Source of the DNA: Hoeflea sp.
Lineage (GTDB): Bacteria > Pseudomonadota > Alphaproteobacteria > Rhizobiales > Rhizobiaceae
Direction: 5' to 3'
Assembly: GCA_965228785.1 (NCBI GenBank)
Contig: CBDDIF010000002.1
Coordinates: 1,516,361 to 1,580,360, forward strand
DNA: 64,000 nucleotides
Part shown: piece by piece, positions 11,442-15,530 of the stretch
Layout: every line of letters begins with the position of its first letter
Numbering within the stretch: position 1 is the first letter of the stretch
Position numbers and translations under genes: made by a program
The notes under the pieces: generated by a model
Told to the model about the DNA's origin: nothing
Seen by the model: only the letters and a program-made list of their open reading frames with translations
The model's database searches: none

Positions 11442-12638
11442 TTACGGTGCCTGGACGATGCCTTCTCCGACATCTTCACGTTCGGCAGAGGCTACCAGTG
11501 CGCTACGGTCTGCGGTCGCCAGCAACTGGCCGGAAAGCACATCGCTGCGGATCCCTCCGCTTTCATCAAGCTGCTTCTGAGCCCAAAGGGCCGCAACACC
11601 GGCGACGTGCGGTGTGGCCATGCTGGTGCCACTCATACCGGTCAGGCCACCGCCGACCGCAGCGGAGATAACGTTGACGCCAGGGCCCGAAAGGTTGCAT
11701 TGCGTGTTGGAAAAACGAGCCACGTCATGGCCGCTTGATCCGCCCTCTGACAGCGCGCCGACAGACAAGATTCCGGTTCCGGCAGCAGGCGGGCTCACCG
11801 CAATTTCGAATTGCGGTCGTTCTGACTCATTGCCCGAGGCTGCAACGATCAGAGTGGCTTCCTGAATGGCATTCTGGCTTACGAGCAGATCCGCCAGGCG
11901 CGAGAACAGGTTGACATTCGCACGGTATTGCTCGAGCGCGATCGAAGTCGCCGGTTCTACTTGAAAGCCCGCGTCAACCAACTGTTTGACAAATCCGGGA
12001 AAATCGATCCCAAGGGACATCGAAACCACATTGGCGCCTTCGCGAACCGACCACTGAATGGCCTCGACCAGTTTGGCCGACGATCCACCTCCCTGCCCCA
12101 ATACTTTCCCTATGATAGCGTCGGTAACGCCGGTCGCCACGCCGATGCGCAATCCATTGACATCGCGACCAAAAATCGTTCCGGCGCAGTGAGTGCCGTG
12201 GCCATGCTGATCGTCATCGCCCTCGGCCGTGAAGTTCTTGCGGGTCAGATTGACACCGTTGAATGCTGGATGGTTCGGGTCAATTCCGGTATCGAGCACC
12301 GCGACCTTGATGCCCTCGCCATCAAACTGGGATTGAGGCGCTCCGACAGCTTGCACGCCCCAGGTCGCTCCTCCCGCCAGCGCGCTGGCGTCCGGTGGCG
12401 TCACATCCATTGGCTCAATCAATTGCAGCGGCATCGGTGCCGCTATTGCCTTTGTGCGGGGATCGCGGCGCAGATCGTCTCGTTCTGCCTTCGAAAGCGG
12501 CGCCACGGAAATGTCCAGCGTTTCCATGTTGGAGCTTGTGCTCGCACCAAGCGCCTCTGCCCCGGGCATGCCTAGATTGCCGGCCTCCGGAACGAACAGT
12601 CTTTCGGATCTCAATACGATAAAGTCCTGCTGCGTCAT
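11442..12638 (-). CDS. S8 family serine peptidase (subtilase) without a recognisable signal peptide
   Basis: Catalytic triad motifs VAVLDTGID (Asp), HGHGTHCAGTI (His) and GTSMATPHVAG (Ser). I chose the ATG at 12638 (MTQQDFIVLRSE..) because GGAGAG lies 4 nt upstream. Alternative starts are 12650 and 12692. Confidence 0.85.
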   Translation of the reverse strand: MTQQDFIVLRSERLFVPEAGNLGMPGAEALGASTSSNMETLDISVAPLSKAERDDLRRDPRTKAIAAPMPLQLIEPMDVTPPDASALAGGATWGVQAVGAPQSQFDGEGIKVAVLDTGIDPNHPAFNGVNLTRKNFTAEGDDDQHGHGTHCAGTIFGRDVNGLRIGVATGVTDAIIGKVLGQGGGSSAKLVEAIQWSVREGANVVSMSLGIDFPGFVKQLVDAGFQVEPATSIALEQYRANVNLFSRLADLLVSQNAIQEATLIVAASGNESERPQFEIAVSPPAAGTGILSVGALSEGGSSGHDVARFSNTQCNLSGPGVNVISAAVGGGLTGMSGTSMATPHVAGVAALWAQKQLDESGGIRSDVLSGQLLATADRSALVASAEREDVGEGIVQAP

Positions 12639-12801
12639 TTGGCTCTCCATCTCTGTATATTCGACTGAAGTTGCAGTGTTGGCCGGCCCCATCGGCCGCG
12701 GCCCCGTCTTGGGTGCCGCATTTTCGAACGATAGCGCGCAACGCTGTCGGACTATGTGAGTTTAGCCACATCAAAAGAAAAATGGTCACAGGCGACAAAT
12801 C

Positions 12802-12830
12802 GGTTGCTGTTTGCAACCGGAGCGTATAAA
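12802..12830 (+). promoter_or_regulatory. Promoter-like element with inverted repeat GGTTGC-N5-GCAACC, upstream of Y-RNA-like modules a+b
   Basis: ggttgctgtttgcaacc (12802-12818) overlaps a -35-like TTGCTG/GTTGCT. TATAAA at 12825-12830 follows at a 15-17 nt spacing. Module a begins about 11 nt after the -10. Confidence 0.4.
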
Positions 12831-12840
12831 CACCGCGCCT

Positions 12841-12898
12841 CCATTCGTGGCGAGGCGAAAGCTCCGGTTGAAACCGCTGTCAGCTTGTTCCCGAGTGG
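12841..12898 (+). ncRNA. Small Y-RNA-like stem-loop module a
   Basis: Closing helix CCATTCG/CGAGTGG, flanked by 5' TGGCGAGG and 3' TGTTCC, the signature shared by all five modules. Inner helix AAGCT/AGCTT. The loop contains GGTTGAAACC, as module c does. Confidence 0.5.
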
Positions 12899-12905
12899 CC
12901 CACAG

Positions 12906-13041
12906 CCGCAGGCGTGGCGTAGAACACGGTTACTTCGACTGTGAATCGAGAGGTTGTCGGTTCGAGCCCGACCCGGCCTGCCATGGGCCGGTAGCTCAAT
13001 TGGATAGAGCGCTTTACCGGTTCGCCTGTTCCCGCCTGCGG
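12906..13041 (+). ncRNA. yrlA: YrlA-like Y RNA (module b) with circularly permuted tRNA-like domain
   Basis: Perfect 9-bp closing helix CCGCAGGCG/CGCCTGCGG. T arm GTCGG-TTCGAGC-CCGAC at 12956-12972. 7-bp acceptor stem 12973-12979/12985-12991 with G-CCA retained in the capping loop. U8-A9 then D arm GCTC-AATTGGAT-AGAGC (12994-13010). Lies on the same strand upstream of the TROVE gene. Confidence 0.7.
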
Positions 13042-13105
13042 TGAGCCAACTCCATTCGTTCTGAGTTTGCTTCAGCCAGTCGAGCGGAATCTTTTTTCAT
13101 TTTCT

Positions 13106-13137
13106 ATGTTGCAATTTGCAACATAGGCAGATACATA
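13106..13137 (+). promoter_or_regulatory. Promoter-like TTGCAA-N17-TACATA embedded in a 19-nt palindrome, upstream of modules c+d
   Basis: atgttgcaa-t-ttgcaacat perfect 9-1-9 inverted repeat at 13106-13124. -35 TTGCAA at 13109-13114 and -10 TACATA at 13132-13137. A T-run at 13092-13097 just upstream may end the a+b transcript. Confidence 0.45.
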
Positions 13138-13145
13138 GCGCTCCG

Positions 13146-13216
13146 CCAATCGTGGTGAAGATGACGGTTACTTCATTCAGATTGAAACCAGACCGTCATC
13201 GCCTGTCCCCGAATGG
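13146..13216 (+). ncRNA. Small Y-RNA-like stem-loop module c (paralog of module a)
   Basis: Closing helix CCAATCG/CGAATGG (one mismatch), flanked by 5' TGGTGAAG and 3' TGTCCC. GGTG/CGCC mini-helix. 8-bp helix ATGACGGT/ACCGTCAT. The loop contains TACTTC and GATTGAAACC. Confidence 0.5.
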
Positions 13217-13221
13217 TTCAA

Positions 13222-13360
13222 GACCGCAGGCGTGGCGCAGATCGCAGATACTTCTTAATCTGTGGTCGCGGGTTCGAATCCCGCCGCTCCGAAAGGAGTG
13301 TAGCTCAGCCCGGTAGAGCAGCAGCACCCAAACTGTGGTCGCCTGTTCCCGCCTGCGGTC
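13222..13360 (+). ncRNA. yrlA: YrlA-like Y RNA (module d) with circularly permuted tRNA-like domain
   Basis: Perfect 11-bp closing helix GACCGCAGGCG/CGCCTGCGGTC. T arm GCGGG-TTCGAAT-CCCGC at 13268-13284. Acceptor-like stem CGCTCC/GGAGTG capped by a GAAA tetraloop (13285-13300). U8-A9 then D arm GCTC-AGCCCGGT-AGAGC (13301-13319). Confidence 0.7.
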
Positions 13361-13379
13361 CTGCCTTTTGTCGCATCCG

Positions 13380-13488
13380 CCCGTCCGGCGAGCGCGTGGC
13401 GTAGAAAACGGATACTTCGGTCATCCTTTAGCGGACGGGGTTCAACTCCCCAAGCCGTTTTCGAATGTTCCCGCGTTCGCCCGACGGG
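13380..13488 (+). ncRNA. Y-RNA-like module e (long closing helix, T-arm-like hairpin only)
   Basis: 17-position closing helix 13380-13396/13472-13488 with one C-C mismatch and one G-U. Same 5' TGGCGTAG and 3' TGTTCC signature. Inner helix GAAAACGG/CCGTTTTC. T-arm-like GGGG-TTCAACT-CCCC at 13437-13451. Ends 32 nt before the rsr ATG. Confidence 0.55.
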
Positions 13489-13520
13489 TCGGAAGCAATG
13501 AGTAACGATGGAGAAGAACG

Positions 13521-14819
13521 ATGCGCCTGAACATCGCGTCCCGCATTCCCGTCCGCCGCACCCATCAAGGTGCGCCGGCCAAGCACATCTCGCCGGAGGC
13601 GGCTCTTCGCCGCTCGGTTCTGTCGTGCCTGCTGTGGGAGAACGAGTTCTATGAGGACGGCCAGCACATCGCTGACCGTATCATCGAGCACGCCGCAGCG
13701 GTCGATCGCGAAACCGCATCGGCGCTGGCTGTGGAAGCACGTACCGTTTTCGGACTGCGCCACGCGCCGCTGATGCTGCTTCTCGACCTGATCCGCCGCG
13801 GCGGACCGGGCGTTGCGGACACAATCGCCGAAACCATCCGACGCGCCGACGAGATCACCGAACTGGTAGCGCTCTACTGGCGTGACGGCAAGCGGCCCTT
13901 GTCCAAGCAGATGAAGCTTGGATTGGCGAAGGCGTTCGGGAAGTTCTCCGAATACCAGCTGGCCAAGTACGACCGCGAAGGTCCGGTGCGGCTGCGCGAC
14001 GTGATGTTCCTCACCCACGCAAAGCCGCGGGATGCGGAACAGGCAGCACTGTTCATGCGGGTCGCGGACCGGTCGCTGAAGACTCCGGACACCTGGGAGG
14101 TCGCACTGTCGACCGGTCAGGACAAGAAGGCGTCATTCGAACGGCTGCTTCGCGAGGGCAAGCTCGGATATCTCGCCCTGCTGCGCAACCTGCGCAACAT
14201 GGCCGAGGCTGGCTGCGACCTGGAACTGGTCAAGGACGCCATCGTTGCCCGCAAAGGCGCCGACCTGGTCTTTCCGTTCCGCTACGTCGCTGCGGCCCGT
14301 GCCTGCCCGCAGCTCGAACCGGTCATAGACCAGGCGCTGTGTGAGGCCATTGCGTCAGCTCCACGGCTGACCGGCCGCACCATCGTGCTGGTCGACGTGT
14401 CCGGATCGATGAACTGCCGGCTGTCGGGGCGTTCCGACCTGACGCGAATGGACGCCGCCGCTGCACTGGCTTCGATCCTGCACGGCGAGCTTCGCCTGTT
14501 CACCTTTTCCACAGATGTGGTGGAAGTTCCGCCGCGGCGCGGCATGGCAGGCGTCGATGCGGTGGTGCAATCGCAACCACACCTGGGTACGCGGCTCGGC
14601 GCCGCGGTCAAGAAGGTGAACCGCCTGCCGCATGATCGGTTGATCGTCATTACCGACGAGCAGTCTCATGATGCGGTGCCGGACCCGAAGGCCGGACGAG
14701 CCTACATGATCAACGTCGGCTCCTACCGGAACGGCGTTGGTTATGGCCGCTGGACCCACATCGATGGGTTCTCGGAAGCCGTCATCCGCTTCATCACCGA
14801 GGTCGAGAATGACCGGTGA
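13521..14819 (+). CDS. rsr: Ro60-related protein (Rsr): TROVE domain plus vWA domain with MIDAS motif
   Basis: Matches Ro60 hallmarks: LGYLALLRNLRNM (cf. ALLRNL), FPFRYVAAA, IVLVDVSGSM (DxSxS MIDAS), LIVITDEQSH and a C-terminal GFSEAVIRFI. GGAGAAG RBS 6 nt upstream of the ATG. 432 aa. Confidence 0.85.
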   Translation: MRLNIASRIPVRRTHQGAPAKHISPEAALRRSVLSCLLWENEFYEDGQHIADRIIEHAAAVDRETASALAVEARTVFGLRHAPLMLLLDLIRRGGPGVADTIAETIRRADEITELVALYWRDGKRPLSKQMKLGLAKAFGKFSEYQLAKYDREGPVRLRDVMFLTHAKPRDAEQAALFMRVADRSLKTPDTWEVALSTGQDKKASFERLLREGKLGYLALLRNLRNMAEAGCDLELVKDAIVARKGADLVFPFRYVAAARACPQLEPVIDQALCEAIASAPRLTGRTIVLVDVSGSMNCRLSGRSDLTRMDAAAALASILHGELRLFTFSTDVVEVPPRRGMAGVDAVVQSQPHLGTRLGAAVKKVNRLPHDRLIVITDEQSHDAVPDPKAGRAYMINVGSYRNGVGYGRWTHIDGFSEAVIRFITEVENDR

Positions 14820-14997
14820 CGAGCTGAAACAGGCGGCAATCACACTCTTTGGCGAGCGCGGATGGCAATCCGCGCTCGCTCGCCATCTGGGCGTCGACCG
14901 CACCCAGATCTGGCGCTACGTCACAAACAACCGCGTCCCCGGTCCGGTCCGCGCCGCGGTGACCTGCTGGGTCAAACACGGGCCGCCGACGGACTGA
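14809..14997 (+). CDS. Small helix-turn-helix DNA-binding protein (Cro/YdaS-like), overlapping the rsr stop
   Basis: 62 aa: MTGDELKQAAITLFGERGWQSALARHLGVDRTQIWRYVTNNRVP.., with a plausible HTH at SALARHLGVDRTQIWRYV. The ATG at 14809 overlaps the rsr 3' end by 11 nt, suggesting translational coupling. The ORF-track start at 14737 lies inside rsr. Confidence 0.6.
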   Translation: MTGDELKQAAITLFGERGWQSALARHLGVDRTQIWRYVTNNRVPGPVRAAVTCWVKHGPPTD

Positions 14998-15101
14998 GCA
15001 CCCTGCCCTATTTCTTTCCCGGCCGCATTTGATCGCGGACTGCGTCTGTGCCATGAACCGGTTTCACAAACCGGGCGACACTCTCTCTTTCGGGAAGATC
15101 C

Positions 15102-15530
15102 ATGAAACTTGAATTCCACCACATCAACTTCGTGTCAGAGAACGTCGACCGGCTCCATGATTTCTACACGAAGGTCCTGAGATTGGACGATATTCCGCTC
15201 AGTCAGTTTCCAAGAACGGAAGAGACGGACGATACGGGATACGGCGGCAAGATTCGATTTGCGACCGAGGGCGGGATGCAGTTGCATCTGGCGGAGCGCA
15301 ATCTCGACGTGGCATTCAAGAATGGGCAGGTGATCAATCCAGTCGAACGCGGCCATATTGCGTTTCGCACCGATGATCTCGCCGCAGTAAAGGCCATGCT
15401 CGAAGAAAACGGGATCCACTATTCCGACTACGGCACCGCCTTCTCGAAGGAATGGCACCAGATTTTCTTCCATGATCCGGAGGGAAACGTGGTCGAGGTG
15501 CACCAGGAGGTCGCCACGATGGGCGATTGA
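15102..15530 (+). CDS. VOC (glyoxalase/bleomycin resistance/dioxygenase) family protein
   Basis: 142 aa. MKLEFHHINFVSENVDRLHDFYTKVLRL.. and ..GHIAFRTDDL..FFHDPEGNVVEV are typical VOC beta-alpha-beta-beta-beta modules. Confidence 0.8.
   Translation: MKLEFHHINFVSENVDRLHDFYTKVLRLDDIPLSQFPRTEETDDTGYGGKIRFATEGGMQLHLAERNLDVAFKNGQVINPVERGHIAFRTDDLAAVKAMLEENGIHYSDYGTAFSKEWHQIFFHDPEGNVVEVHQEVATMGD

What the first reader, a model, noticed from the sequence alone, without database searches (positions are those of the whole stretch)
12841..13488. A shared closing-helix and asymmetric-loop signature in all five modules: candidate Rsr-binding site
Every module has a terminal helix of unrelated sequence. 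The helix is flanked on the 5' strand by T-GG(C/T)G-N-AG and on the 3' strand by TGT(T/C)CC, immediately before the helix 3' strand.

| Module | 5' side | 3' side |
|---|---|---|
| a | CCATTCG-TGGCGAGG | TGTTCC-CGAGTGG |
| b | CCGCAGGCG-TGGCGTAG | CGCC-TGTTCC-CGCCTGCGG |
| c | CCAATCG-TGGTGAAG | CGCC-TGTCCC-CGAATGG |
| d | as b, with TGGCGCAG | as b |
| e | ..GAGCGCG-TGGCGTAG | TGTTCC-CGCGTTCGCC.. |

In b, c and d, the GG(C/T)G can pair with a CGCC placed just before the TGTYCC. That produces a helix, a 1x6 asymmetric loop and a second helix. Ro60 proteins are known to recognise a conserved bulged helix near the paired 5'/3' ends of Y RNAs. This conserved element is therefore the obvious candidate for the Rsr-binding site.
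Basis: partly seen in the sequence, partly recalled or inferred. Interest (0 to 1): 0.7.

Follow-up and report, generated by a model that had tools for sequence, protein, structure and literature searches.

The report
Rsr-binding stem of Y-RNA-like modules
Five small structured RNA modules just upstream of a bacterial Ro60 (Rsr) gene share the stem-and-bulge signature that related Ro proteins use to grip their "Y RNA" partners; this is a known kind of RNA-protein pair, but here the second strand of the binding stem is conserved too.

Summary
Window 12841-13489 holds five tandem Y-RNA-like modules, directly upstream of and on the same strand as a TROVE+vWA gene (rsr, 13521-19). Each has a terminal helix flanked by U-GG-YG-N-AG on the 5' strand and UGUYCC on the 3' strand. 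Module a is a decayed copy with an imperfect 5' motif.

- **Modules:** b and d are YrlA-type, with a permuted tRNA-like core. Module e has only a T arm. Modules a and c are short hairpins.
- **5' motif:** it is the published GNCGAAN0-1G / "CGAA" Ro-recognition motif, so the Rsr-binding interpretation is supported by homology. It was not tested directly.
- **Fold:** the proposed 1x6 loop is not the best-supported fold. Across about 150 related modules, GG pairs with the CC of UGUUCC. No cell is unpaired, and compensatory AG:CU, AU:AU, GU:AC and GC:GC variants occur. This gives helix, bulged U, 2 bp, then a 3'-strand bulge, which resembles the metazoan Ro site.
- **3' motif:** published text says only the 5' strand is conserved in bacterial Y RNAs. 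The conserved 3' UUCC is therefore a modest new point.
- **Distribution:** arrays of 3-8 such modules precede rsr in most of 77 bacterial loci. They also occur in phages.

Verdict: new members of a known kind, of moderate interest.

The parts
12841..12898 (+). Module a: short hairpin Y-RNA-like module, decayed copy. Closing helix 12841-12847 / 12892-12898; U 12848; GG 12849-12850; CG 12851-12852; TGTTCC 12886-12891.
   Evidence: Sequence. R1 hit at 16.7 bits, E 0.045. 13-nt deletion relative to the orthologue L002:2304-2376, which scores 46 bits.
12905..13042 (+). Module b: YrlA-type module with a permuted tRNA-like core (T arm, acceptor-like stem-loop, D arm). Closing helix 12905-12914 / 13033-13042; bulged U 12915; GG 12916-12917; CG 12918-12919; UAG 12920-12922; GGTTACTTC 12928-12936; CGCC 13023-13026; TGTTCC 13027-13032.
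   Evidence: Rfam YrlA RF02553 at 44.5 bits, below the gathering score of 69. R1 at 120 bits. Alignment A1.
13145..13217 (+). Module c: short hairpin module. Closing helix 13145-13152 / 13210-13217 with one mismatch; U 13153; GG 13154-13155; TG 13156-13157; AAG 13158-13160; GGTTACTTC 13166-13174; CGCC 13200-13203; TGTCCC 13204-13209.
   Evidence: R1 at 38.3 bits, E 7.5e-7. Fold z-score -3.55. Orthologues L002:2624-2701 and L004:2623-2695.
13219..13363 (+). Module d: second YrlA-type module. Closing helix 13222-13232 / 13350-13360; U 13233; GG 13234-13235; CG 13236-13237; CAG 13238-13240; AGATACTTC 13246-13254; CGCC 13340-13343; TGTTCC 13344-13349.
   Evidence: Rfam YrlA at 49.5 bits. R1 at 100.5 bits. 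Fold z-score -5.37.
13379..13489 (+). Module e: rsr-proximal module with a T arm only. Closing helix 13379-13396 / 13472-13489 (17 bp and one mismatch); U 13397; GG 13398-13399; CG 13400-13401; UAG 13402-13404; GGATACTTC 13410-13418; TGTTCC 13466-13471; no CGCC.
   Evidence: R1 at 47.9 bits. Fold z-score -4.65. A module ending about 30-40 nt before rsr is seen in most loci.
13521..14819 (+). rsr: Ro60-related protein of 432 aa with TROVE and vWA domains. Presumed binding partner of the modules.
   Evidence: Pfam TROVE E 8.6e-11, plus VWA_CoxE (above its Pfam cut-off) and a sub-threshold VWA_2 match. The only PDB sequence matches are Thermus phage phiRo60, 9KOP/9L5Y, E 2.4e-27. 77 homologous loci.
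12803..12817 (+). Palindrome GTTGCTGTTTGCAAC, about 25 nt upstream of module a. Candidate operator or promoter element of the first RNA unit.
   Evidence: Only two matches to GTTGC-N5-GCAAC in the window, against 0.07 expected. The same palindrome is upstream of rsr in 21 fetched loci, among L001-L022, L048, L054 and L056, most of them alphaproteobacterial.
13108..13122 (+). Palindrome GTTGCAATTTGCAAC, about 25 nt upstream of module c. Candidate operator or promoter element of the second RNA unit.

Best explanation
The region encodes an array of five Y-RNA-like non-coding RNAs: two YrlA-type tRNA mimics, one T-arm-only module, and two short hairpins, one of them decayed. They are probably made as one or two precursors from palindrome-marked start regions, the last one running into rsr.

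The shared signature at the base of every module is the docking site for the ring-shaped Ro60 orthologue Rsr encoded immediately downstream. The best-supported anatomy, from the outside in, is:
1. A terminal helix of at least 7 bp of free sequence, ending in a G:C pair.
2. A single bulged U on the 5' strand.
3. Two base pairs, G-G with the C-C of UGUUCC.
4. A conserved 3'-strand bulge, YY-U-K-U-U.
5. Two more pairs, Y-G with C-G.
6. The 5' trinucleotide N-A-G.
7. An 8-bp covarying helix (H3) capped by GGWUACUUC.

By analogy with Xenopus Ro60, D. radiodurans Rsr and Thermus phage phiRo60, Rsr reads the nearly invariant 5'-strand bases (G10, G11, G13, A16, G17). The two bulges distort the helix, which opens it for reading. 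The variable distal parts of the modules are free to engage other partners, so one Rsr can be tethered or gated in several ways.

What is shown here: the sequence signature, the pairings, the linkage to rsr and the homology to YrlA. What is inferred: Rsr binding, which bases are contacted, and the adaptor role.
For: **Locus**
- The downstream gene has TROVE and vWA domains.
- Modules b and d match Rfam YrlA at E 1.9e-8 and 6.8e-10.
- ARAGORN finds no true tRNA.

**Family-wide signature**
- Model R1 was built without any pairing in the motif region.
- It finds 237 modules in 78 sequences, all on the rsr strand and nearly all upstream of rsr.
- Alignment A2 has these column counts: bulge U 141 / C 8; G10 140; G11 143; G13 149/149; A16 145; G17 143; U294 150/150; U295 143; C296 144; C297 139.

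**Pairing**
- Pair 10:297: GC 138, AU 8, GU 2, none unpaired. Pair 11:296: GC 143, UA 4, CG 1, none unpaired.
- Variants AG:CU, AU:AU, GU:AC and GC:GC occur in loci labelled Clostridia, Planctomycetaceae, Asticcacaulis and Pseudomonadota, and in an unclassified MAG.
- The same holds for 115 modules of all size classes, phages included.
- The closing helix and H3 covary strongly. The covariation score is 0.66 against 0.18 for shuffles and at most 0.14 for slid controls.
- Minimum-free-energy folds of all five window modules bulge the U and pair GG with CC. Constrained folds favour this by 1.0-9.7 kcal/mol.

**Independent test**
- Viral contigs were picked by the 5' motif only.
- In 76 of 146 instances, TTCC is followed at once by a perfect 6-bp complement of the 5' closing strand. 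The shifted-helix control gives 1 of 146, and other tetramers give at most 1.
- 101 of 120 contigs encode an Rsr homologue, and 125 of 127 motif copies are on its strand.

**Literature**
- GNCGAAN0-1G is proposed as the Rsr recognition motif, and Rsr protects the analogous Yrn1 nucleotides (PMC4201824).
- The vertebrate Ro site is a 7-bp helix, a bulged C, and a 3-nt bulge on the opposite strand (PMC4726728).
- phiRo60 binds a stem-bulge-stem carrying CGAA, as shown by binding assays and mutants (PMC12135203).
Against: - There are no binding, expression or end-mapping data for this organism or for this Rsr clade.
- The protein is divergent. phmmer finds no match to Xenopus Ro60 or D. radiodurans Rsr among solved structures, even at E up to 10.
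- The third base of 'CGAA' is not conserved here: U 64, C 61, A 24.
- The partner of C285 is ambiguous. G13 and G17 fit about equally well.
- In the actinophage and Rhizobium-phage versions the first G of GG is U, and the 2-bp rule is not evident.
- The equally conserved GGWUACUUC element could be part of, or could be the main, protein contact.
- Module a lacks several conserved positions.
Confidence: 0.8

Rival explanations
1. GGYG pairs with the CGCC placed before UGUYCC, which leaves a 1x6 asymmetric loop (U opposite UGUYCC) as the feature Rsr recognises.
For: - The sequences of b, c and d allow this fold.
- The Rfam YrlA consensus structure pairs cggCga with ucGccg in the same way.
- Its inner two pairs hold up well: Y12:G286 is CG 93, UG 50, UA 5 with none unpaired, and G13:C285 is GC 139.
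- The predicted energy gap in module b is only 1 kcal/mol, so both conformers could be populated.
Against: - The outer two pairs fail often: 10:289 is unpaired in 15 of 149 modules and 11:288 in 37 of 149. Their variation is almost entirely G-C/G-U wobble.
- Modules a and e, and many relatives, have no CGYY.
- The competing GG:CC pairs are never broken and show five compensatory pair types.
- All five minimum-free-energy folds choose GG:CC.
Confidence: 0.15
2. The signature is mainly an RNA-processing signal rather than a protein docking site. It would mark where nucleases such as RNase III, RNase E or RNase P excise individual modules from a polycistronic precursor.
For: - The modules are packed head to tail with spacers of only a few to about 15 nt between a-b, c-d and d-e.
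- The motif sits exactly at the module boundaries.
- Y RNAs of M. smegmatis and D. radiodurans are processed from precursors (PMC4201824).
Against: - The conserved bases lie inside the terminal helix, not at its ends.
- The 5' motif is homologous to nucleotides that Rsr protects in D. radiodurans Yrn1, and to the CGAA element whose mutation weakens phiRo60 binding (PMC4201824, PMC12135203).
- The motif is linked to rsr genes across phyla and in phages. A host-nuclease signal gives no reason for that linkage.
Confidence: 0.08
3. The similarity among the five modules is only the residue of recent tandem duplication and carries no function.
For: Within the window, b and d have identical closing helices, and a and c differ at one position. 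The layout looks like a duplicated unit of palindrome, short module and long module.
Against: - The same signature, with unrelated and covarying closing helices, is found in loci whose Rsr is only 27-70% identical, and in phages.
- Flanking and loop sequences diverge freely while the motif columns are 93-100% conserved.
Confidence: 0.01

Closest known systems
YrlA (Y RNA-like A; Rfam RF02553; Chen et al. 2014, PMC4201824; Wang et al. 2018, bioRxiv 10.1101/312249)
   Same: - Encoded next to rsr and on its strand.
- The 5' and 3' ends pair into a long stem.
- A 5' motif of the GNCGAAN0-1G type, followed by YUAY (here UACUUC).
- A permuted tRNA-like core, in the order T arm, acceptor-like stem-loop, D arm. 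Modules b and d have all of these.
- R. etli, another alphaproteobacterium, is one of the published examples.
   Different: - The modules score below the Rfam gathering cut-off: 49.5 and 44.5 bits against 69.
- The third motif base is free, giving GGYGNAG.
- The Rfam model stops before the closing helix, so it cannot show the bulged U or the GG:CC pairs.
- A conserved 3'-strand NNUUCC is present here, whereas the literature states that only the 5' strand is conserved across bacteria.
- Two copies occur per locus, inside a five-module array.
Second, simpler bacterial Y RNAs (S. Typhimurium YrlB, M. smegmatis YrlB, D. radiodurans Yrn2; PMC4201824)
   Same: - Hairpin-type or T-arm-only RNAs encoded beside YrlA/Yrn1 and rsr.
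- They carry the same 5' motif and are co-transcribed with the longer RNA. Modules a, c and e fit this description.
   Different: - I could not retrieve these RNAs with the tools, so sequence homology to them was not tested.
- Here the short modules also keep GGUUACUUC and the full 3' motif.
Ro60-binding lower stem of metazoan Y RNAs (Green 1998 and Stein 2005, as summarised in PMC4726728)
   Same: The architecture matches: a helix of about 7-8 bp formed by the RNA ends, one bulged pyrimidine on the 5' strand, two further base pairs, then extra unpaired nucleotides on the 3' strand.
   Different: - The sequence differs: GGUCCGA / UUGACY in vertebrates, against (S)G-U-GGYGNAG / NNUUCC-C(S) here.
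- In vertebrates the conserved bases lie mostly before the bulge. Here they lie after it.
- The bulge is U rather than C.
- The 3' bulge is 6 nt rather than 3.
Thermus phage phiLo Yrl1/Yrl2 with phiRo60 (PMC12135203; PDB 9KOP, 9L5Y)
   Same: - phiRo60 is the closest solved relative of the window's protein (E 2.4e-27).
- Its RNAs lie upstream of the Ro60 gene.
- They have a stem-bulge-stem with a CGAA-type motif, shown by EMSA and mutagenesis to contribute to binding.
   Different: - Only two RNAs are described, and no tRNA-like domain is reported.

Membership tests
YrlA / bacterial Y RNA-like RNAs | Encoded within a few kb of a Ro60/Rsr (TROVE + vWA) gene and on the same strand | tested here: met
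   rsr lies at 13521-14819 (+), with TROVE and vWA domains. All five modules lie 32-680 nt upstream on the + strand. The same arrangement holds for 237 modules across the window and related loci, all on the rsr strand and nearly all upstream of rsr.
YrlA / bacterial Y RNA-like RNAs | 5' and 3' ends pair into a stem that carries the GNCGAAN0-1G motif on its 5' strand | tested here: met
   All five modules have terminal helices. The motif reads GGCGUAG, GGUGAAG, GGCGCAG and GGCGUAG in b-e, which is GNCG-N-A-G. Module a reads GGCGAGG. The third purine of 'CGAA' is not conserved in this clade.
YrlA / bacterial Y RNA-like RNAs | tRNA-like domain: T arm, then acceptor-like stem-loop, then D arm | tested here: met
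   Met for b and d (Rfam alignments; covarying T, AS and D stems). Module e has a T arm only. Modules a and c have none, so they are YrlB-like rather than YrlA.
YrlA / bacterial Y RNA-like RNAs | Reaches the Rfam RF02553 gathering score (69 bits) | tested here: not met
   There are no hits at gathering threshold. The best scores are 49.5 bits (d) and 44.5 bits (b). The shortfall comes from the stem regions; the T, AS and D core aligns well.
YrlA / bacterial Y RNA-like RNAs | Bound by Rsr in vivo or in vitro; carries tRNA-type modifications (psi55, D) | not testable with these tools
   Needs RIP or EMSA and modification mapping.
Canonical (metazoan / Deinococcus type) Ro-binding bulged helix | Terminal helix of about 7 bp or more, with a single bulged pyrimidine on the 5' strand followed by a short helix | tested here: met
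   The bulge column is U in 141 and C in 8 of 149 modules. The two pairs beyond it are never broken and show compensatory changes.
Canonical (metazoan / Deinococcus type) Ro-binding bulged helix | Unpaired nucleotides on the opposite (3') strand just above the short helix | tested here: inconclusive
   The consensus leaves YYUKUU without a Watson-Crick partner. However, the partner of C285 (G13 or G17) and any non-canonical pairs cannot be resolved from sequence.
Canonical (metazoan / Deinococcus type) Ro-binding bulged helix | Conserved sequence GGUCCGA on the 5' strand and UUGACY on the 3' strand | tested here: not met
   The strands here read SG-U-GGYGNAG and NNUUCC-CS.
Ro60 / Rsr protein family (for the adjacent gene) | TROVE (HEAT-repeat ring) domain followed by a vWA domain | tested here: met
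   Pfam finds TROVE, VWA_CoxE (above its cut-off) and a sub-threshold VWA_2 match. A full-length alignment (residues 13-428) to phiRo60, 9L5Y/9KOP, includes the shared LTHxxPRD segment. No direct phmmer match to Xenopus Ro60 or D. radiodurans Rsr.

The most novel reading that the evidence does not exclude
The NNUUCC element on the 3' strand, clamped to the 5' GG by two covarying base pairs just beyond a bulged U, is an undescribed second half of the Ro-binding site in bacteria and phages. If so, a very large clade of bacterial and phage Y RNAs keeps the metazoan-type bulged-helix architecture. That would contradict the published view that only the 5' strand is conserved. Arrays of up to eight modules sharing this site would then act as interchangeable adaptors or gates for a single Rsr, including in phages, where they sit among tRNA genes.
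Probability: 0.45. Interest if true: 0.5.

Novelty: new member of a known kind. Interest (0 to 1): 0.38.

Why it matters
**For annotation.** These RNAs are missed by Rfam at its curated threshold. They can be mis-called as tRNA genes; one probable case is in Xanthomonas phage 10KY502B. The signature found here is helix, U, GGYGNAG ... NNUUCC, helix. It is specific enough to find Y-RNA-like modules of all sizes next to rsr in bacteria and phages.

**For Ro biology.** It gives a concrete, testable model of the bacterial Ro-binding site, with ready-made compensatory mutants such as GG:CC to AG:CU. It suggests that the bulged-helix architecture known from animals is older and more widespread than the literature states.

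**For function.** One Rsr is commonly accompanied by 3-8 different RNA partners. This bears on the tether-and-gate model of Y RNA function.

Tried and rejected
- **Rfam at gathering threshold:** no hit in the window. Only the permissive scan showed YrlA.
- **ARAGORN:** no tRNA or tmRNA, so the tRNA-like pieces are not tRNA genes.
- **blastn of the region against plasmids:** no match.
- **Sigma-70 promoter and intrinsic terminator scan of 12500-15200:** nothing found. Transcription start and end points remain unknown.
- **'Longest helix' search around tRNA-like cores:** it recovered the motif boundaries in only about half the cases, because inner or outer helices competed. I replaced it with the covariance model.
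- **A very relaxed motif scan:** too noisy, with 427 hits on the + strand and 297 on the - strand. It was used only to spot pair variants.
- **Alternative pairings for the loop:**
  - N14:K293 is correlated (MI 0.29) but only 52% Watson-Crick or wobble.
  - Y12:K293 is 63% paired.
  - A16:U290 and G17:Y289 show no covariation.
  - I rejected all of these as helices.
- **G13 or G17 as the partner of C285:** I could not decide between them.
- **Direct alignment with the characterised RNAs** (Salmonella YrlA/YrlB, M. smegmatis YrlA/YrlB, D. radiodurans Yrn1/Yrn2, phiLo Yrl1/2): not possible. Two reviews, PMC10870794 and PMC6542706, are not held.
- **Mapping phiRo60 RNA-contact residues onto the window protein:** the result is mixed. 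K141 aligns with K, R178 with K, R137 with S, and K142 with L. This assumes a numbering offset of 8, so I gave it little weight.
Full report
**What is in the sequence.** Window 12841-13489 contains five consecutive stem-closed modules on the + strand. They lie directly upstream of a 432-aa ORF (13521-14819, +) that has a TROVE domain followed by a vWA domain. That is the domain architecture of Ro60/Rsr.

- The 3' element TGTYCC followed by CG occurs six times in the 64-kb window, counting both strands. Five of the six are in 12886-13473, all on the + strand.
- The 5' element TGGYGNAG is present in b, c, d and e. Module a reads TGGCGAGG.
- In every module the 5' element directly follows, and the 3' element directly precedes, the two strands of a terminal helix.
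- ARAGORN finds no tRNA, and Rfam finds nothing at gathering threshold.
- A permissive Rfam scan matches YrlA (RF02553) to the cores of d (49.5 bits, E 6.8e-10) and b (44.5 bits, E 1.9e-8).
- The modules are therefore of three kinds. Modules b and d are YrlA-type, with T arm, acceptor-like stem-loop and D arm. Module e has only a T arm. Modules a and c are short hairpins.

The closing helices of b and d are identical and those of a and c differ at one base, so there are only three independent helices. I therefore fetched 77 loci encoding relatives of the protein. They carry labels of Hoeflea, Mesorhizobium, Asticcacaulis/Caulobacterales, Hyphomicrobiaceae, Acidobacteriota, Planctomycetaceae, Clostridia, Patescibacteria and others.

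- I aligned 49 diverse long modules (A1). RNAalifold recovers the closing helix and the T, AS and D stems, all with compensatory changes.
- I built a covariance model (R1) in which the motif region was deliberately left unpaired.
- R1 finds 237 modules in the 78 sequences. All are on the strand of rsr and nearly all lie within about 1.5 kb upstream of it. Most loci have 3-8.
- With filters off, the five best hits in the whole 64-kb window are modules b, d, e, c and a. The next hit has E = 0.07.
- Short (63-99 nt) modules from many loci carry the same signature.
- Module a is a decaying copy. It has a 13-nt deletion relative to L002, and the copy in L004 has lost its 5' half.

**An independent test.** I scanned IMG/VR for a pattern made only of 5'-side sequence, GTGGYGNAGRNNNCGGWTACTTC. 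The scan hit its limit at 120 contigs.

- In 76 of 146 instances, TTCC is followed at once by a perfect 6-bp complement of the 5' closing strand, 35-235 nt downstream.
- A shifted-helix control gives 1 of 146, and other tetramers give at most 1.
- 101 of the 120 contigs encode an Rsr homologue in the fetched stretch.
- 125 of 127 motif copies are on the strand of rsr, a median of 216 nt upstream.

The 3' motif and the linkage to rsr are therefore not artefacts of how the first set was collected.

**Anatomy of the shared element.** In alignment A2 (150 modules) the columns read as follows.

| Feature | Column(s) | Counts |
|---|---|---|
| Last closing pair | 8:298 | G:C 145, A:U 3 |
| Bulge | 9 | U 141, C 8 |
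| G | 10 | 140 |
| G | 11 | 143 |
| Y | 12 | C 93, U 56 |
| G | 13 | 149 of 149 |
| N | 14 | U 64, C 61, A 24 |
| A | 16 | 145 |
| G | 17 | 143 |
| R | 19 | A 84, G 61 |
| Helix H3 | 19-27 : 278-284 | covarying |
| GGWUACUUC | 26-34 | conserved |
| C, G | 285, 286 | 140, 144 |
| YY | 288, 289 | mostly pyrimidine |
| U | 290 | 122 |
| K | 293 | G 93, U 31, A 23 |
| U | 294 | 150 of 150 |
| U | 295 | 143 |
| C | 296 | 144 |
| C | 297 | 139 |

- Pair counts show that G10:C297 and G11:C296 are never broken. They read GC 138, AU 8, GU 2 and GC 143, UA 4, CG 1.
- The variants are AG:CU, AU:AU, GU:AC and GC:GC. They come from loci labelled Clostridia, Planctomycetaceae, Asticcacaulis and Pseudomonadota, and from an unclassified MAG.
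- The closing helix and H3 covary strongly. The score is 0.66 against 0.18 for shuffles and at most 0.14 for slid controls.
Its inner pairs, Y12:G286 (CG 93, UG 50, UA 5, none unpaired) and G13:C285 (GC 139), hold.
- Its outer pairs fail in 15 and 37 of 149 modules, and their variation is almost entirely wobble.
- The combined model keeps those inner pairs and pairs GG with the CC next to the closing helix. On 115 modules of all classes, phages included, 92.4% of cells are paired against 65% for shuffles.
- Minimum-free-energy folds of all five window modules bulge the U and pair GG with CC. Constrained folds favour this over the 1x6-loop fold by 1.0 (b), 2.6 (c), 4.1 (d) and 9.7 (e) kcal/mol.
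- A mutual-information scan found no further Watson-Crick pairs in the loop. N14 and K293 are correlated but not as standard pairs.

**What it most likely does.** The 5' element is a relaxed form of GNCGAAN0-1G.

- Chen et al. [quoted passage not shown] They proposed it as the Rsr recognition element. It overlaps the Yrn1 nucleotides that D. radiodurans Rsr protects (G7, G8, C9, G11, A12). R. etli is one of their examples (PMC4201824).
- The only solved structures matching the window protein by sequence are those of Thermus phage phiRo60.
- phiRo60 binds phage-encoded Yrl RNAs through a stem-bulge-stem with a CGAA motif. KD is about 17 nM, and each CGAA point mutant binds 3-4 fold weaker (PMC12135203).
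- The vertebrate Ro site is described as a 7-bp helix, a single bulged C, and a 3-nt bulge on the opposite strand, which open the major groove (PMC4726728).
- The element here has the same architecture with different letters: helix, bulged U, two base pairs, then a 3'-strand bulge.

I therefore conclude, with about 0.8 confidence, that the signature is the Rsr docking site of each module. The variable distal parts (tRNA mimic, T arm, hairpin) would provide different effector or gating functions. The pairings, conservation and linkage are shown. Binding and the bases contacted are inferred.

**Rivals.**
- The 1x6-loop fold may exist as a minor conformer, but comparative data do not favour it.
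- A pure processing signal does not explain the linkage to rsr across phyla and phages. It also does not explain the homology to nucleotides protected by Rsr.
- Duplication residue is excluded by the cross-locus conservation.

**Comparison with what is known, and novelty.** Modules b and d are YrlA-type RNAs that fall below the Rfam cut-off. Modules a, c and e correspond to the simpler 'second' Y RNAs known from Salmonella, M. smegmatis and D. radiodurans. The functional idea is already in the literature.

- What I did not find in the texts available is a conserved 3' strand. Chen et al. 2014 say that only the 5' strand is recognisable in the Salmonella and M. smegmatis RNAs. Wang et al. [quoted passage not shown]
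- The Rfam model ends just before the CC and the closing helix, so it cannot show the bulged U or the GG:CC clamp.
- The 3' UUCC recurs even in a Gordonia phage whose Ro-like protein is only about 28% identical. There, however, the first G of GG is U and the 2-bp rule is unclear.
- I could not retrieve the characterised RNAs to check them directly.
- Overall these are new members of a known kind, with a modest refinement of the binding-site model. Interest is about 0.4.

**Other observations.**
- A 15-bp palindrome, GTTGC-N5-GCAAC, precedes modules a and c. It recurs upstream of rsr in 21 fetched loci, most of them alphaproteobacterial.
- Phage genomes carry the same arrays. Xanthomonas phage 10KY502B has five modules, and Caulobacter phage CcrPW has eight.
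- An annotated 'tRNA-Thr' in the Xanthomonas phage lies inside one such module.

Noticed in passing
window 12803-12817 and 13108-13122: A 15-bp palindrome, GTTGC-N5-GCAAC, lies about 25 nt upstream of modules a and c. These are the only two copies in 64 kb, against 0.07 expected. The same palindrome occurs 1-3 times upstream of rsr in 21 fetched loci, most of them alphaproteobacterial. It does not occur in any of the fetched loci labelled Acidobacteriota or Clostridia. It is a candidate operator or promoter element for each Y-RNA transcription unit. The regulator is unknown.
   Followed up: partly
window 12841-12898 (module a), compared with L002:2304-2376, L001, L003 and L004: Module a is decaying. 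It has a 13-nt deletion that removes GGUUACUUC, and an imperfect 5' motif. The orthologous copy is intact in L002, degenerate in L001 and L003, and has lost its 5' half in L004.
   Followed up: yes
window 12928-12936, 13166-13174, 13246-13254, 13410-13418: GGWUACUUC, at the top of helix H3, is as conserved as the proposed binding motif. T29, C31, T33 and C34 are near-invariant in 149 modules. It is kept even in short modules that lack any tRNA-like domain. It may therefore belong to the protein-binding platform rather than to the tRNA mimic.
   Followed up: partly
L078 (Xanthomonas phage 10KY502B, OQ622092.1) 2331-2398, inside 2325-2460: The annotated 'tRNA-Thr' lies inside a YrlA-like module (R1 112 bits) directly upstream of the phage's Ro60-like gene. 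Rfam tRNA scores it only 33 bits. It is probably a mis-annotated Y-RNA-like tRNA mimic.
   Followed up: partly
L078 1869-2460; L079 (Caulobacter phage CcrPW) 1222-2416; L084-L203 (IMG/VR): Phages carry the same arrays upstream of Ro60-like genes: five modules in the Xanthomonas phage and eight in CcrPW. At least 120 IMG/VR contigs contain the 5' motif, often next to phage tRNA genes. The protein clade is shared between bacteria and phages at about 60% identity.
   Followed up: partly
alignment A2, columns 14 and 293 (in module b: window 12920 and 13028): The free base N of GGYG-N-AG and the K of U-K-UU are correlated (MI 0.29), but not as Watson-Crick pairs: U:G 58, C:U 24, C:A 18, A:G 18, C:G 16. 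This could reflect paralogous module subfamilies or a non-canonical contact.
   Followed up: no
window 13043-13107, especially the T-run at 13092-13097: The only long spacer in the array, between b and c, holds a run of six T. The second palindrome follows it. This suggests two transcription units, a-b and c-d-e-rsr. The terminator scan found no canonical hairpin there.
   Followed up: partly
window 13521-14819: The Rsr here belongs to a short (about 430 aa), divergent clade. Pfam TROVE matches only residues 186-235. phmmer against all PDB sequences finds only the Thermus phage phiRo60 entries, and finds neither Xenopus Ro60 nor D. radiodurans Rsr. No rtcB, rtcA or rtcR homologue appeared among the eight flanking ORFs scanned with Pfam. 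The neighbours include a subtilase, a TPR protein, a glyoxalase-family protein and an FAD monooxygenase.
   Followed up: partly
L081 (Rhizobium phage RHph_TM2_3B), L082 (Gordonia phage Neville), L083 (Streptomyces phage LuckySocke): There are lineage-specific versions of the signature.
- Actinophages read helix-G\|A\|UG\|CG\|U\|AG, with AGUUCC or UUUUCUA on the 3' side.
- The Rhizobium phage reads G\|U\|UG\|CG\|A.., with AUCU on the 3' side.

The GCG-N-A core persists, but the GG:CC clamp is not evident.
   Followed up: no
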